Shown in pieces: positions 3,301 to 30,844 of a DNA stretch of 32,788 nucleotides. Each line of letters starts with the position of its first letter. The first letter of the stretch is position 1. The stretch is from positions 1 through 32,788 of the IMG/VR virus record IMGVR_UViG_3300003369_000003; one strand, written 5' to 3'. The DNA comes from a virus. Lineage: Duplodnaviria; Caudoviricetes. Under the pieces are notes generated by a model, which saw only the letters and a program-made list of their open reading frames with translations, was not told the DNA's origin and searched no databases. The translations under genes and the position numbers were made by a program.

Positions 3301-5409
3301 ACTTACTTAGTTTCTACGGCAAAGGCGGCAGATTCAGACAAATTAAACGGACAAACTGCAACCTACTATTTGGCGGCTTCGCTCAAAGGTTCGGTAAACG
3401 GACTTGCCGAGTTAGATGCAAACGGCTTTGTCAAAAACACACAGTTACCGAGTTATGTAGACGACATTTTAGAAGGTACTTGGATAAATACTACTACTTT
3501 TAATGATTTAAGCAGTAATCCCTACACTCCCGAAACAGGGAAGATTTATGTAGACACAACGACTAATAAGACTTGGCGTTGGGGCGGTTCTGTTTATGCT
3601 CCCGTATCTGACACTCTGGCACTTGGCGAGACTTCCGCAACTGCTTACAGGGGCGACAGGGGAAAGACGGCTTATGACCATAGCCAAATTGCAGGCGGTA
3701 CAGGGGTGCATATTTCCGACACAGAGCGGACAAATTGGGGAACGGCATATTCTCACTCACAAGTAGGACATTTATTATTAAGAGCTATTGGCGATGGCAA
3801 TGCTGATAGTTATTTTGGTTCAGATAGTTTTGTTAGGCCAACAGGTACTTGTACAAATTTTCCTGTAACCATAAATAATGGGAGTGTAATTCTGACATTT
3901 CGGGGATTTGACTCAAATGCTTCGATACAACTATTCTCACATGCAACTACTGGAGAATTATATTTAAGAGGTACTTCTTACGGCACTACTTTAGGTTGGT
4001 ATAAGTTATTTCATACAGGCAACTCTAATCTTTCCACAGTTCCTTGGACTGCATCAACAGTTACAATGAGTGAGAATATCAACACCCGATTAAGACTACC
4101 AAAAGCTGCACCCGCAGGAATGGAAGCTACACAATGGTATGTGAGCGTAACAGATACTGGCTTTGCAGGCGAAGAGCCGAGTGGCGGTGGTGGAGTTACT
4201 TTATTTTCTGCTCTTTCTGATACTGCCCTAACTACTGCATTTCCTTACAATTCGGGAATGGTCGGCAGAGTGCCTGTACTTACTGATTTGGGAAGTGGTG
4301 TTTATAAGTGGAGAGATACGGCACTTGCAATATCTCACATCACAGGCTTACAGGCCGCATTAGACGGCAAACAGGCAACGATTACAGCAAACACTTATAC
4401 TCTTTTTGCACACACAGGGGCAACGGGAGCGGCACACGGCAATTCAAGCGATTCGGTAGCAGGTTTTATGACTGCTGCACAATATACTAAATTGGCAGGG
4501 ATAGCCGAAAGTGCAAACAATTATGTTCATCCTACAACAGACGGCAGTTTGCATGTACCTGCAACAAGCACAACCAATGAAAACAAGATTTTAAAAGCGG
4601 GAGCAACGGCAGGAACCTTTGCTTGGGCGACAGAGTATAGTTATACTCACCCTACAACGGCAGGAAATAAACACATTCCTTCGGGGGGTGCGGCTGCAAA
4701 TATCCTGATTTATTCAGCAGACGGCACAGCAGTTTGGGGAGCAAATAACTATGCTTTGCCAACAGCAAGTGATTCTGTTTTAGGCGGAGTAAAAATAGGT
4801 GCAAATGTTACGATTACCGCAGGGGTTATCTCTGTGGCAACTCCTTATTCACACCCTGCCACTCACGCAGCTTCGATGATTGACGAGAGTACAACAAGAA
4901 GATTTATCACAGACACAGAGCGGACTAATTGGGGAGCAGCTTATTCACACACTTCGCTGACCTCAACAGCTCACGGACTTGGGGCTTCGGCATTTCACGC
5001 AGATAACTATTTTCAGATAGCAGGAACATACCTTACAAAGGTTGCTTCCGCTTTCTCTGGTGATTTAAATACAATTACAGCCACTGGGTATTTAACTCTA
5101 ACAGCAGGGGCGACAAATTCTGTTATATCTAATAATGCACAATCCATACTGACTTTTGAGCATAATGACAGCGCTTACTCTACGCAATTTCAGATGAGTT
5201 ATTTAGCTGATTTTTATATCAGAGGTAGAAATGTAGGAACATATGGAAATTGGTATAAATTTTATCATTCAGACAACTCTAATCGTTCAACAGTTGCTTG
5301 GACTGCATCAACCATTACAGCCACAGAGAACATCTTTACAAAACTCACCATTCCTTCGTCGGCTCCTTCGGAAATGACAGCAGGGAGATGGTATATATCA
5401 ATCGTATAA
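370..5409 (+). CDS. large tail protein: baseplate-hub/Tal-like N-terminus fused to a tail fibre / receptor-binding region
   Basis: 1679-aa ORF. The N-terminus has Bacteroidota phage tail motifs (FSYGQGNGLY, TRLRAYGSTRNMP..YY). The C-terminal half is Gly/Thr/Ala-rich with fibre motifs (GLAELDANG, NNYVHPT, YALPTASDSVLGGVKIG) and knob-like domains. Confidence 0.85.
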   Translation: MTNIIQKGTASTVRTTAYSLQYSGTFMEIPMLTVTIKSPALIAFAIGDFIVWDYDGLTYTLKELPPVSKQSTANTYGEAFVYEGVKFVSALAEIKYLEFLDVVPSTDITSHFSSLPTFSFYGNVFALIDRLNANLGRLYANWIVEAADVESGDIYDALYTDRDVTIDSPIKVRDALALVYSMWGLGFVYHYDTVTAKHTITIGEYGADTGGFSYGQGNGLYMVGKTITKEDSIVTRLRAYGSTRNMPARYYNTKAILDNRILIQNDPMLYLPNLMIPYTKWGENPYEPDPELAYINCNNADIEILSGVPDTSYAKYGIREQSVYFDGTNNNKEIFPTIEGITSDEMRDAVSGYSGAQREFYISPDVTAYPDGTRLDKIKVIDSTTDDGVIKTDNTYKAEPEFAGDTDEVTMTDRVMTKTFSPIYSATLTSAGEYKVTFTEQSLTAVCTDSLISDGVLRVWIVKDGNRSSLAATITGVAITNGFEFALPELVLTTQKANGLFSIEMDLEVTLSDWHLGDLATVTWTREAGKITYELTKTVPNNTFTIELKQIGFDIFRFLPSAGQIPIISMTSGSCAARQFNITKTTYLPATDSWQLTCVRQKDNSIGQWFPNSNFKINAEDSFVLLNINMPDILIDIAELRLYDEGCKWLKKRKEQQYIYEPKIDEVYMAILAAAGTPEIIKEGMMMPLVDTDLSVPEGTILINSLTVTESEDSVRKFEVVLREDTDTDLLKYINAQAKQVSSSAVSGITNATTATTEPADQTTTVTSLGFTPENIANKTSVISVDSTATQYPNAKAVYDKVAGFALLAGSATQDFAVQKLTMATLQIPKTAPAGMTVNQWHLSVVETGFAGEEPSGGGGVTLFSALSDTALTAAFPYNSGMVGRVPMITDLGSGVYKWRDTLLAISHIDGLTAAIAGKLALHATADAVSGLTITAGASISNSNTGDQTLSGLGGQAALSGTGFVKISGTTISYDNTTYLVSTAKAADSDKLNGQTATYYLAASLKGSVNGLAELDANGFVKNTQLPSYVDDILEGTWINTTTFNDLSSNPYTPETGKIYVDTTTNKTWRWGGSVYAPVSDTLALGETSATAYRGDRGKTAYDHSQIAGGTGVHISDTERTNWGTAYSHSQVGHLLLRAIGDGNADSYFGSDSFVRPTGTCTNFPVTINNGSVILTFRGFDSNASIQLFSHATTGELYLRGTSYGTTLGWYKLFHTGNSNLSTVPWTASTVTMSENINTRLRLPKAAPAGMEATQWYVSVTDTGFAGEEPSGGGGVTLFSALSDTALTTAFPYNSGMVGRVPVLTDLGSGVYKWRDTALAISHITGLQAALDGKQATITANTYTLFAHTGATGAAHGNSSDSVAGFMTAAQYTKLAGIAESANNYVHPTTDGSLHVPATSTTNENKILKAGATAGTFAWATEYSYTHPTTAGNKHIPSGGAAANILIYSADGTAVWGANNYALPTASDSVLGGVKIGANVTITAGVISVATPYSHPATHAASMIDESTTRRFITDTERTNWGAAYSHTSLTSTAHGLGASAFHADNYFQIAGTYLTKVASAFSGDLNTITATGYLTLTAGATNSVISNNAQSILTFEHNDSAYSTQFQMSYLADFYIRGRNVGTYGNWYKFYHSDNSNRSTVAWTASTITATENIFTKLTIPSSAPSEMTAGRWYISIV
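2842..3105 (+). repeat. tail-fibre module, copy 1 (copy 2 at about 4087-4350)
   Basis: Encodes PKTAPAGM..W..SV..TGFAGEEPSGGGGVTLFSALSDTALT.AFPYNSGMVGRVP..TDLGSGVYKWRDT.LAISHI.GL. A 39-bp exact match lies at 2950-2988 and 4195-4233. Confidence 0.9.
4087..4350 (+). repeat. tail-fibre module, copy 2
   Basis: Near-identical protein module 1245 bp (415 aa) downstream of copy 1. Confidence 0.9.
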
Positions 5410-9714: not shown

Positions 9715-9786
9715 TGCGGGGTGGCGCAGAGGCAGCGCGCTTGGTTCATGCCCAAGAGGTCGAGATTTCAAAATTCTCTCCCGCTA
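9715..9786 (+). tRNA. tRNA-Met (CAT), initiator-like, with non-canonical features
   Basis: Acceptor TGCGGGG/TCCCGCT (1:72 mismatch), D arm GCGC..GCGC, anticodon arm CTTGG-TTCATGC-CCAAG, T arm GAGAT-TTCAAAA-TTCTC (53:61 mismatch). No encoded CCA. Confidence 0.75.
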
Positions 9787-9838
9787 CAAATTAACATTTT
9801 AAAATAAATTATTATTTTGATATTAGGAATATAAAGAG

Positions 9839-25443: not shown

Positions 25444-26211
25444 TTAAGAGTATTGAACGGCAGATTCTCGTGCGATAAAAAAATGTATACCTTTTGAGCA
25501 CTCATTGAACCTCTCCTCGTCAAAATCTGTAACGCTTACAATTTCGCCTATTTTGTATATAAACGAAGCGTCTTGATTAGATTCAATTTGTGTAATCTCC
25601 GCCTTTGACCCGTCAATATTTTGTATATCCAAAACTTCTGCCTCCGAGCATCTGCACTTTAGGGTTGTGGCAGAACTTCGTTTAGCATTTTCCGTTACCC
25701 TTAATTTGACAATATGATTAGATGCTTTTTTCCATCCAATAAACGCCCCCTCAGTTGGGCACTGGGATAATAAAAACCCTGTTCCCTCATTATGTATTAC
25801 TTTGCTAAGGTCGGCATTGCTAAGGTTGGCATAGCGAAGGTTGGCATAGCTAAGGTCGGCATAGCGAAGGTTGGCATAGCGAAGGTTGGCATAGCTAAGG
25901 TCGGCATTGCTAAGGTTGGCATAGCTAAGGTTGGCATAGCTAAGGTTGGCATAGCTAAGGTCGGCATAGCTAAGGTTGGCATAGCGAAGGTTGGCATAGC
26001 TAAGGTCGGCATAGCGAAGGTTGGCATAGCGAAGGTTGGCAGAGCTAAGGTTGGCATAGCTAAGGTTGGCAGAGCTAAGGTTGGCAGAGCTAAGGTTGGC
26101 AGAGGCTTTTATCGCCTCTAGTAAGGTTTCCCTTTGTGAATTGTTCTCGCTTTCCCACGAAAACAGAACATTTCCGTAAATACTTTTGATTTCAATTTTA
26201 ATCTTTTTCAT
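25444..26211 (-). CDS. pentapeptide-repeat protein with C-terminal DUF5758-like domain
   Basis: About 20 A(N/D)L(S/R)x repeats followed by FIGWKK..IVKL....A.RSSA...KCRCS.A.V...ECSKGIHFF. Confidence 0.9.
   Translation of the reverse strand: MKKIKIEIKSIYGNVLFSWESENNSQRETLLEAIKASANLSSANLSSANLSYANLSSANLRYANLRYADLSYANLRYANLSYADLSYANLSYANLSYANLSNADLSYANLRYANLRYADLSYANLRYANLSNADLSKVIHNEGTGFLLSQCPTEGAFIGWKKASNHIVKLRVTENAKRSSATTLKCRCSEAEVLDIQNIDGSKAEITQIESNQDASFIYKIGEIVSVTDFDEERFNECSKGIHFFIARESAVQYS
25802..26103 (-). repeat. 15-bp tandem repeat encoding the pentapeptide units
   Basis: (TAGC[T/G]AAGGT[T/C]GGCA)n on the + strand. Confidence 0.95.
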
Positions 26212-26240: not shown

Positions 26241-26441
26241 TGGAGCGAGTAGGAATCGAACCTACACGATATATAGTTTGTGTTAGTTTGCACCCTATTC
26301 GGGGATACTGGTTATGATTTTCACAAACCTTAAAGGATGGTTTTGCGTAACGACTATTTATCAAACTTGTGTACCGCAAACTTATTGCCCCATCCTATCT
26401 ATGCCCATAACAATAGCGTCTACCAATTCCGCCATCGCTCC
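26241..26441 (-). ncRNA. 201-nt tRNA-like RNA (Leu-type D arm) with ~150 nt between the D and T arms
   Basis: Perfect acceptor GGAGCGA/TCGCTCC+A, D arm TGGCGGAATTGGTAGACGC, perfect T arm GTAGG-TTCGATT-CCTAC. No canonical anticodon loop. Confidence 0.75.
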
Positions 26442-26656
26442 TTTTGGGCGGATTTTCGCCGCCTCATTCGTTTGTCAATGAACCTTATATCTCTCACTTG
26501 GTAACGGACTTACTGGCTTTGACTTGTTCGGGCTTATACTTCAAGATGCCACTTCTGTCTGATCTGTTTTCGTTCCTAAAGTTCAAGTGCTGTTATCGAA
26601 TCGTTCGGATTAGTGCCACGCTTGTACTTGTTCAACCTATCTCGGTAACTCTTTTG

Positions 26657-26687
26657 CAAAGGTAATAATGTTTTTGGACTTTGCAAA
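26657..26687 (-). promoter_or_regulatory. Bacteroidota promoter driving the leader / tRNA-like RNA / pentapeptide / integrase unit
   Basis: TTTG-N19-TACCTTTG. Confidence 0.7.
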
Positions 26688-26703
26688 TTTAATTTTTATC
26701 GTT

Positions 26704-29985: not shown

Positions 29986-30057
29986 TTTGATTAGTTTTAC
30001 TTTGTTTAAGGCAGTTTCCTGCCTTGCTCACAATTTAAGGAGTTGCAACCCTTAAAA

Positions 30058-30336
30058 CTAAATTAGCTGTCTTGCCATTAAATCAAATTTCTCACAAAAA
30101 CAGAAATATTCTTTGCCGTTTGCACTTATCTCTTGATATAGGTTATTCTCTTCAAATACCTTTAGTCTCATTTCTTTGTTGTGCAAGTTGCTATTTAGGT
30201 GCTGCATACCCATTATTACATTTACCATGTTATATACCACACTAAACGGATTTAGGTATGTAGCTTTGTCTTTGGTAAGCACATTAGTAACTGTTGTAAT
30301 CTTTTCGATTGTTGTTTGTGTTTCAATTGTTTTCAT
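30058..30336 (-). CDS. hypothetical protein
   Basis: 92-aa ORF. Confidence 0.6.
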   Translation of the reverse strand: MKTIETQTTIEKITTVTNVLTKDKATYLNPFSVVYNMVNVIMGMQHLNSNLHNKEMRLKVFEENNLYQEISANGKEYFCFCEKFDLMARQLI

Positions 30337-30466: not shown

Positions 30467-30844
30467 TTATTCGGATAGTTCACCCGCTTCAATAAGTCGC
30501 ATAAGTTCATTTACTGTTATGGCTTCCACTTCTAATATGTGACCGTCTAAATCTTTTTTAGACAAATGTGCAACCTTACGACCTCTAAACTCAGTAAAAG
30601 AGACAGTAGCCATATACCTATCGTTTCCGTCGATATAATAGCATAAATTCATACCGTCGTACATTCCCACATTTGTAACAGTTTCGAGATCGAAATGTGA
30701 TAGTTCTCCTGCATCCAGTTTGCGATCATATACTAATAACCCGTACTTTGTTTCGTCTATCTCATAGCGTAAAAATCCATTTCTTGGAAAGCCCTCTGAT
30801 GCTGGGCGCATAAGTAACCGATACCAATATTCGGGTGCTTTCAT
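30467..30844 (-). CDS. DarA C-terminal-like (defence against restriction A) domain protein
   Basis: YWYRLLMRPASEGFP..G......YG.LVYDRKL...EL..FDL matches the DarA_C pattern as recalled. Confidence 0.55.
   Translation of the reverse strand: MKAPEYWYRLLMRPASEGFPRNGFLRYEIDETKYGLLVYDRKLDAGELSHFDLETVTNVGMYDGMNLCYYIDGNDRYMATVSFTEFRGRKVAHLSKKDLDGHILEVEAITVNELMRLIEAGELSE

What the first reader, a model, noticed from the sequence alone, without database searches (positions are those of the whole stretch)
26241..26441. Giant tRNA-like RNA: perfect acceptor, D and T arms with a 150-nt structured domain replacing the anticodon and variable arms
Seen: acceptor and T stems are perfectly paired and the D arm is Leu-type, suggesting selection. 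The anticodon stem instead continues as a long helix (UAUUG-UUAUG with CAUAA-C-CAGUA; AGGAUGG/CCAUCCU; UUUGCG/CGCAAA), then a CCC-CGAAUA-GGG hairpin and an extra 25-nt segment. Three (A/G)GUUUG and two CAAACU motifs allow alternative pairings. It seems too short for a group I intron and lacks tmRNA hallmarks. Established: bacterial LeuRS relies on A73 and the elbow rather than the anticodon. Inference: a processed, possibly aminoacylated tRNA scaffold carrying a cargo domain, for example a decoy for anticodon nucleases or a synthetase/EF-Tu sponge. It may be an undescribed ncRNA class.
Basis: partly seen in the sequence, partly recalled or inferred. Interest (0 to 1): 0.8.

Follow-up and report, generated by a model that had tools for sequence, protein, structure and literature searches.

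The report
Pseudoknotted phage RNA in tRNA frame
This phage gene holds a 201-base tRNA-shaped sequence whose variable arm is replaced by a conserved, multiply pseudoknotted domain that also pairs with its own anticodon loop; the family matches nothing in Rfam, recurs in diverse phages even where the tRNA frame is rebuilt or lost, and likely works as a shape-based binder of a host factor rather than as a tRNA.

Summary
The element is real, on the minus strand (26441 to 26241), and under structural selection. I aligned 56 distinct homologues from phage and prophage contigs, Bacteroidota genomes and relatives of E. coli prophage copies. Rfam, ARAGORN and ten paper searches gave no match.

A shortened anticodon arm survives, and its loop bases 35-37 pair with an internal triplet that co-varies (110 of 168 Watson-Crick, 56 expected). 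The insert is a 132-nt variable arm with a 6-bp pseudoknot (336 of 336 cells paired), a 2-bp pseudoknot and a lone tertiary pair.

The core outlasts the shell: 25 members have a canonical T loop, 16 a rebuilt kissing elbow, 12 a variant T loop and 3 no T arm. That argues against leucine charging, an anticodon-nuclease decoy or an intron as the family's function. No partner gene travels with it.

Best reading (0.45): the shell is a processing tag and the core binds a conserved host factor. Expression and function are untested.

The scan noted similar tRNA-framed phage RNAs on other DNA before, some probably of this family.

The parts
26241..26441 (-). Whole tRNA-framed structured RNA gene, 201 nt (numbered 1-201 from 26441)
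   Evidence: (192.8 bits, a training sequence)
26435..26441 (-). Acceptor stem 5' strand (nt 1-7)
   Evidence: 7 of 7 pairs; all 7 pairs change on both sides in A1
26416..26432 (-). Leu/Ser-type D arm (nt 10-26; 3 pairs plus G13.A)
26402..26412 (-). Shrunken anticodon arm (U30-A40, G31-C39) with 7-nt loop UUAUGGG; loop bases 35-37 (26405-26407) pair with the internal triplet
   Evidence: (78% of cells paired)
26268..26399 (-). 132-nt giant variable arm, the conserved core, closed by the 3-bp helix 43-45/172-174
   Evidence: 97% paired, all 3 pairs with two-sided changes
26334..26396 (-). Two-segment stem P2 (46-52/102-108) and P3 (62-67/95-100), with 2-bp pseudoknot 54-55/88-89 and lone pair C73-G91
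26362..26367 (-). PK1 5' strand (nt 75-80, AGUUUG) in the apical loop of P3
   Evidence: 336 of 336 cells paired in 56 sequences
26285..26290 (-). PK1 3' strand (nt 152-157, CAAACU)
26276..26328 (-). P4 (114-120/160-166) enclosing the A-rich linker, the internal triplet, hairpin P5 and the PK1 3' strand
26309..26311 (-). Internal triplet CCA (nt 131-133) pairing with anticodon-loop UGG
   Evidence: 110 of 168 Watson-Crick against 56 +/- 6
26293..26304 (-). Hairpin P5 (138-149), variable in length across the family
   Evidence: C138-G149 in 51 of 56
26249..26265 (-). T arm with canonical TTCGATT loop
26241..26248 (-). Acceptor 3' strand and discriminator A; followed by CTA, so CCA is not encoded
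26446..26464 (.). GC-rich hairpin 4 nt upstream of the RNA; not kept intact in a close relative
26657..26664 (-). TAnnTTTG Bacteroidota-type promoter-like site about 215 nt upstream (a second at 26684-26691); candidate promoter only
   Evidence: the meaning of the motif is recalled knowledge
25444..26211 (-). Downstream pentapeptide-repeat/DUF5758 ORF, 29 nt after the RNA, first of a long co-directional run; a neighbour, not a conserved partner

Best explanation
This is a selected phage non-coding RNA gene whose 132-nt pseudoknotted core plus its self-paired anticodon hairpin is conserved across different outer frames; the RNA is likely cut out of an early transcript by the host's tRNA-processing enzymes and likely acts in trans as a rigid shape that binds and ties up a widely conserved host factor. 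Shown: the fold (covariation), the family, the exchangeable shell, no fixed neighbouring gene, and a phage/prophage distribution. Inferred: transcription from the upstream promoter-like site; RNase P and 3' trimming at the tRNA-like shell (or simple end-pairing in members without a T arm); action in trans; a macromolecular partner that is host-encoded because no phage gene co-travels. The partner is not identified. A stress, translation-surveillance or anti-phage protein is my guess from the early-operon setting.
For: Fold. PK1 pairs change together about 6-16 times on a core tree. Core over shell: shell-only pattern searches returned the core, and core-only patterns returned other shells. L151 (full tRNA shell) and L411 (plain closing helix, no T arm) share 118 of 134 core positions but 9 of 27 and 5 of 27 shell positions. 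34 of the 38 columns conserved in at least 90% lie in the core, and many are unpaired A-rich linkers. Helix sequences vary freely, which fits recognition by shape, not antisense pairing. No partner: among 1019 ORFs near 56 elements no family occurs in more than 4 loci; neighbours are mostly replication, recombination, methylase and repressor genes. In E. coli MB20 it lies between the repressor gene and gam-bet-exo. In E. coli BCE049 it lies opposite to the terminase-portal genes. In L205 it sits 4 nt before a tRNA inside a tRNA array. A close relative in run X2 has 3 listed substitutions in the 201 nt, one turning G54-U89 into G54-C89, and all 21 gap bases outside it (2 of that contig's 13 differences are not listed). 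Precedent for stable tRNA-like phage RNAs: the T5 annotation and T4 RNAC/RNAD.
Against: No expression, processing or binding data. Core conservation is inflated because several core motifs were in my search patterns. The register-free version of the anticodon-loop test is weak (547 against 507 +/- 14, shuffle maximum 558), and only 27 of 56 have all three pairs Watson-Crick in the model's register. 21 of 56 have an ORF start within 60 nt downstream and only 3 a terminator-like hairpin within 130 nt, which leaves a cis role open. Members without a T arm would be poor tRNA-type substrates, so processing must differ there. A fold this complex fits a ribozyme or a small-molecule aptamer equally well.
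Confidence: 0.45

Rival explanations
1. Codon-anticodon mimic: the RNA presents a tRNA body whose anticodon loop is already paired to an internal 'codon' and would enter the ribosome, or a ribosome-sensing factor such as RelA, without an mRNA, like pseudoknot I of dicistrovirus IGR IRESs (recalled, not checked in a paper).
For: The loop is 7 nt in 27 of 56, with consensus U23 U18 A22 N N N G26 of 27. The triplet varies freely with compensation, as expected of sequence-blind recognition of a codon-anticodon helix.
Against: Pairing is at 35-37, not 34-36. The stem is only 2-4 bp. A 132-nt variable arm is bulky. At least 6 members have no T arm (3 in A3; L411, L400, L387), so the L shape is not needed.
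Confidence: 0.15
2. New ribozyme or small-molecule aptamer: the core docks the anticodon hairpin as a substrate, or folds a pocket for a nucleotide signal.
For: Four long-range interactions and invariant A-rich linkers in about 130 nt; phages carry many small ribozymes, and a twister lies in this window.
Against: No Rfam ribozyme or riboswitch match. No conserved candidate cut site is evident in the loop, and there is no expression platform.
Confidence: 0.13
3. Cis-acting leader (antiterminator or translation element) at the head of early operons.
For: It heads a long co-directional run here, lies in the early-left leader in E. coli MB20, and has an ORF within 60 nt in 21 of 56.
Against: It also sits inside tRNA arrays (9 of 56 within 600 nt of a tRNA), before terminator-like hairpins (3 of 56) and opposite to late genes. 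Downstream genes are unrelated. A processed shell would free it from the transcript.
Confidence: 0.13
4. One reading: aminoacylated LeuRS/EF-Tu sponge or anticodon-nuclease decoy with a cargo.
For: This copy has a Leu-type D arm, A73 and a canonical elbow; A73 in 20 of 25 canonical-shell members.
Against: Free acceptor sequence; 31 of 56 without a canonical T loop; the anticodon loop is variable and sequestered, whereas anticodon nucleases read specific loop sequences (established knowledge, recalled).
Confidence: 0.07
5. A tRNA interrupted by an unknown small intron that is spliced to an ~85-nt tRNA.
For: ARAGORN with introns allowed and a lowered threshold of 25 canonical-shell members intron-containing tRNAs. 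Loop-to-insert pairing recalls an internal guide sequence.
Against: Those calls give scattered boundaries and unrelated anticodons. No group I/II model matches. The PK1 pair that would be the G-binding G-C varies (CG 33, UA 20, GC 2, AU 1). The exhaustive excision test did not discriminate (24 of 25 members hit at many boundaries). Shells without a T arm cannot yield a tRNA.
Confidence: 0.04
6. Disrupted pseudo-tRNA with a neutral insert.
For: Missed by ARAGORN and Rfam at default settings.
Against: Extensive two-sided covariation.
Confidence: 0.01

Closest known systems
Phage T5 RNA1/RNA2/RNA3 (AY543070, annotated 'tRNA-like stable RNA with unknown functions') and T4 RNAC/RNAD
   Same: Phage-encoded, non-decoding RNAs in tRNA regions. 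T5 RNA1 has the same Leu/Ser-type D arm and a T arm around an insert. T4 RNAC/RNAD roles are unknown (PMC3014915, PMC9697503; passages seen).
   Different: T5 RNA1 scores 43.1 bits with my model, like other shell-only hits, and shows none of the core motifs by eye. T4 RNAC/RNAD give no hit at E 0.01. They are 119-144 nt; this family is about 170-230 nt with its own pseudoknotted core.
raiA motif RNA (Rfam RF03072)
   Same: About 200 nt. A closing helix leads to a two-segment stem whose apical loop forms a 6-bp pseudoknot with a strand inside the next multiloop, just after a hairpin (PMC12968392: abstract, introduction, methods, first results section and section 15 read). Function unknown.
   Different: No match to RF03072 in 5 of 5 member-bearing records at E 10, nor in the window. 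No tRNA frame or phage link in that paper ('phage' 0 occurrences). No P6-P8 domain or UUAGACGUAA linker here. The likeness is topological only.
Class II tRNA-Leu (RF00005)
   Same: Acceptor, D and T arms; variable arm closed just before the T stem; U33 in most 7-nt loops.
   Different: 2-4 bp anticodon stem; loop paired in cis; A34 in 22 of 27; 132-nt variable arm; identity elements not kept.
tmRNA (one- and two-piece)
   Same: tRNA-like ends around a pseudoknotted domain.
   Different: Has a paired D stem; stops in 2 of 3 frames of the core and no conserved tag frame seen; Rfam tmRNA models touch only the T arm at 10-16 bits; ARAGORN finds no tmRNA.
Group I intron in tRNA-Leu(UAA)
   Same: Insert next to a UUA-containing anticodon loop; exon-like bases pair with an internal strand.
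   Different: Insert lies in the variable arm and is 132 nt; no model match; no conserved G-site pair.

Membership tests
Decoding tRNA (RF00005) | 7-bp acceptor and 5-bp T stem with TTC loop | tested here: met
Decoding tRNA (RF00005) | 5-bp anticodon stem with a free 7-nt loop | tested here: not met
   2 pairs here; loop paired to nt 131-133
Decoding tRNA (RF00005) | Model or ARAGORN match at default settings | tested here: not met
tRNA-Leu identity (LeuRS substrate) | A73 and canonical elbow kept across the family | tested here: inconclusive
   met in this copy; A in 20 of 25 canonical shells; 31 of 56 lack a canonical T loop
tRNA-Leu identity (LeuRS substrate) | CCA addition and charging | not testable with these tools
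   CCA encoded after 1 of 56 elements
tmRNA | No D stem; tag reading frame; model match | tested here: not met
Group I intron | P3-P7 core with invariant G-binding pair; model match | tested here: not met
Any intron-containing tRNA | One homologous excision restores a canonical tRNA in all members | tested here: inconclusive
   17,050 constructs, hits at many boundaries; scattered anticodons
raiA motif | RF03072 match | tested here: not met
raiA motif | Triangular P3/P4/PK1/PK2 core in 3D | not testable with these tools
   coarse 2D likeness only
T4/T5 tRNA-like stable RNAs (loose kind) | Phage-encoded tRNA frame with a non-decoding insert | tested here: met
T4/T5 tRNA-like stable RNAs (loose kind) | Homologous insert | tested here: not met
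T4/T5 tRNA-like stable RNAs (loose kind) | Accumulates as a stable RNA in infection | not testable with these tools
   no RNA data were available for this stretch
Known small ribozymes and riboswitches (Rfam 15) | Model match | tested here: not met

The most novel reading that the evidence does not exclude
A new class of mobile structured RNA that phages plug into different tRNA-like frames. It folds a built-in codon-anticodon duplex onto a multiply pseudoknotted core and uses it to occupy or blind a conserved piece of the bacterial translation or tRNA-surveillance machinery (ribosome, RelA-like sensor or tRNA-targeting defence), or it is a new ribozyme that docks its own anticodon hairpin as substrate.
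Probability: 0.3. Interest if true: 0.92.

Novelty: new variant of a known kind. Interest (0 to 1): 0.72.

Why it matters
Large, intricately folded bacterial and phage RNAs are rare, and the few that are understood do central jobs. This one is compact, has four covariation-supported long-range contacts, spans phages of at least two host phyla and has copies in E. coli prophages, so it can be tested at once in a laboratory host. The natural series of full tRNA shell, rebuilt elbow and no T arm separates frame from cargo. That makes the old question of what phage tRNA-like RNAs (T4 RNAC/RNAD, T5 RNA1-3) are for directly testable. It also shows that tRNA annotation tools miss, or mislabel as intron-containing tRNAs, a real RNA family.

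Tried and rejected
BLAST of the window element against GenBank phages gave only short shell-level hits, none covering 80%. Five further members gave at most short shell hits or nothing. A specific shell pattern found nothing in viral contigs, and the single metagenome scan found only the window's own contig. Patterns found nothing.

No RNA holder was listed among 13 runs; this says nothing about expression. Small-share runs were not used for habitat. Model searches found no further match in 150 sampled genomes of the Myroides genome's phylum or 150 of the Flavobacterium genome's genus; only 16 candidates per genome were scored, so this means 'not found in those searched'.

The in-silico excision test was uninformative. 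The 219 nt upstream do not fold better than shuffles (z 0.13). A homologue search with the neighbouring integrase-like protein gave no host names. A possible UAU/AUA helix (135-137/168-170) is complementary in about 90% of members but lacks two-sided change, so it is not claimed.

Rows left out: tandem-tRNA matches; coding-region chance matches; near-duplicates and 9 further members when A3 was assembled (L131, L143, L177, L181, L206, L209, L218, L219, L220), plus later finds. L426 and L427 were not rescanned because they are contigs already held.

Papers: ten searches listed no description of this family. Of PMC10690425 I saw passages and searched 7 supplements for motifs with no hit, but files 1 and 2 could not be read. 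Of PMC8040213 I searched 8 supplements only, with files 7 and 8 unread. The family could be among their candidate RNAs, or in papers outside the library.

Full report
Setting. The window is a 32.8-kb linear virus record, about 25% complete. It encodes a lysozyme, a DnaB helicase, recombination and methylase genes and an integrase-like protein. TAnnTTTG sites are enriched (61 against 44.5 +/- 6.5, 0 of 100 shuffles); from recalled knowledge this points to a Bacteroidota host. The element lies on the minus strand, about 215 nt after such a site and 29 nt before a pentapeptide-repeat ORF that heads a long co-directional gene run.

Observation. The tRNA arms and the named helices are there. ARAGORN and Rfam miss the element; at E up to 10 there are 7 weak Rfam hits, all far below their cut-offs.

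Homologues. A pattern made only of the D arm and T loop with a 138-168 nt gap returned 119 viral loci. After tandem tRNA pairs were set aside, nine distinct sequences shared the insert's motifs (L003, L004, L010, L081, L092, L052, L079, L113 and, more distantly, L027). Core-motif patterns gave 70, 33, 79 and 119 loci, many of them chance matches in coding DNA, and 3 bacterial genomes: Flavobacterium sp., Myroides odoratus and a Saprospiraceae MAG. A covariance model from 23 sequences picked out the members. Alignment A3 holds 56 distinct ones, median pairwise identity 58%. The lowest-scoring members (69-82 bits) overlap the best shell-only hits (69 bits) and are included on core motifs, not on score. 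Three of 5426 E. coli genomes carry a copy; the two I opened are unannotated as RNA and lie in prophage regions.

Fold. On the unfitted MAFFT alignment, 94.1% of 1147 cells pair and 42 of 51 pairs change on both sides; shuffled and slid controls give 68% and 32-41%. The pairs were chosen from this alignment, so the controls flatter them. The stronger test is on A3 for pairs that were not in the model: PK1 336 of 336 cells, the 2-bp pseudoknot 91%, the lone pair 73:91 96%. On a core tree built without the variable PK1 columns, both sides of those pairs change about 6, 16, 15-16 and 10-14 times. The order is: acceptor, D arm, a 2-4 bp anticodon hairpin, a 3-bp helix opening a 132-nt variable arm, P2/P3 with PK1 from the apical loop, P4 enclosing an A-rich linker, the triplet, hairpin P5 and the PK1 partner, then the T arm.

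The anticodon loop pairs inside the molecule. Loop bases 35-37 and the three bases after the conserved UAA form 110 of 168 Watson-Crick pairs, against 56 +/- 6 (maximum 82 in 10,000 shuffles). Combinations include UGG/CCA, GUC/GAC, UCG/CGA, UAG/CUA, UGC/GCA, UUC/GAA, AUC/GAU, GAG/CUC and AUG/CAU. All three pair in 27 of 56; many misses look like one-base register slips of the alignment. A register-free test is only weakly positive.

Core versus shell. By my pattern rules, 25 members have a canonical T loop, 12 a variant one, 16 a rebuilt elbow in which the D and T loops look complementary (GCUGAU/AUCAGC type, read by eye) and 3 no T arm. Three more members without a T arm turned up later. L151 and L411 share 118 of 134 core positions, yet one has a complete tRNA shell and the other a plain closing helix, and both keep the anticodon hairpin and its partner. 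Acceptor sequence is free, A73 is kept in 20 of 25 canonical shells, and CCA is encoded once in 56. So the conserved unit is the core plus anticodon hairpin, and tRNA identity is optional.

Context. No ORF family recurs in more than 4 of 56 loci. The 65 neighbours scanned (of 110 listed) are mostly helicase, RecE/RecT, methylase, HNH, repressor and some terminase genes. Nine of 56 lie within 600 nt of a tRNA, 21 have an ORF start within 60 nt, and 3 a terminator-like hairpin. No further copy was found in two samples of 150 genomes, which fits a mobile, not chromosomal, gene. Public DNA contigs confirm the sequence (X1, possibly the source sample) and show a relative with 3 listed substitutions and no gaps inside the element but 21 gap bases upstream (X2).

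Mechanism. Shown: a selected fold, an exchangeable frame, no partner gene. Inferred: early transcription, release by tRNA-processing enzymes, and action in trans through shape. Free helix sequences with fixed A-rich linkers argue against antisense action, and the absence of a phage partner points to a host target shared by Bacteroidota and Gammaproteobacteria. I put this at 0.45. The rivals are a codon-anticodon mimic for the ribosome (0.15), a ribozyme or aptamer (0.13), a cis leader (0.13), a charged decoy (0.07) and an intron (0.04).

Known relatives. It is built like T5 RNA1 (same shell type; 43 bits, no core) and belongs to the loose, unexplained kind that includes T4 RNAC/RNAD (PMC3014915 and PMC9697503, passages only). 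Its core resembles the raiA RNA in coarse topology (PMC12968392, named sections read) but does not match RF03072. It fails the tests for tRNA, tmRNA and group I intron. Ten searches of the paper library found no description, and four large supplementary files of the two Fremin papers could not be read, so novelty means 'not found', not 'proved absent'.

Earlier notes of this scan describe several tRNA-framed phage RNAs and gave me the T4/T5 leads. Two share words with members of this family, and one describes a 205-base element of similar build. They are unchecked AI notes and are not counted as support.

Verdict. Observation partly confirmed, interpretation partly supported. An uncatalogued, strongly covarying RNA family inside a known but unexplained kind; interest 0.72.

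Noticed in passing
window 29993-30059 (-): Type-P3 twister ribozyme, 46.7 bits (cut-off 39.9), between two small ORFs, touching the stop of the upstream one.
   Followed up: no
window 9715-9787 (+): tRNA-Met(CAT) with an atypical T loop (ATTTCAAAA) and mismatches, just before an HNH ORF.
   Followed up: no
L024:593-792, L048, L054, L089 and kin; L034, L049, L066, L098, L103, L114, L115, L116: Other ~190-215 nt Leu-type tRNA shells with perfect acceptor stems but unrelated inserts (50-69 bits, shell only); the L024/L048 group is a recurring separate family.
   Followed up: partly
L011, L047, L055, L057, L058, L065, L067, L068, L084, L094, L096: Shorter (about 85-125 nt) tRNA shells with non-canonical inserts, often in tandem.
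   Followed up: no
L148:1148-1270, 1486-1598, 3812-3931; L165:2443-2793; L179:157-613, 2445-2556; L194:5138-5272; L191:4360-4531: Several members have further tRNA-framed elements within 3 kb, suggesting cassettes of such RNAs.
   Followed up: no
L226:2756-2958, L225, L221, L270, L306 and kin; hits H41-H45: A proteobacterial tRNA-like shell with complementary D and T loops in place of the GG/UUC elbow; its 3' part also occurs in named Pseudomonas, Erwinia and Klebsiella phages without this core.
   Followed up: partly
L143:2986-3173: A copy with intact core and 3' shell whose 5' acceptor and D arm are missing, possibly a decayed or recombined allele.
   Followed up: no
window 25444-26211 (-): Pentapeptide-repeat plus DUF5758 protein directly downstream; pentapeptide repeats are DNA mimics in other systems (recalled).
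   Followed up: no
window 30467-30844 (-): Weak DarA C-terminal match (E 4e-4, below cut-off), a possible anti-restriction gene.
   Followed up: no
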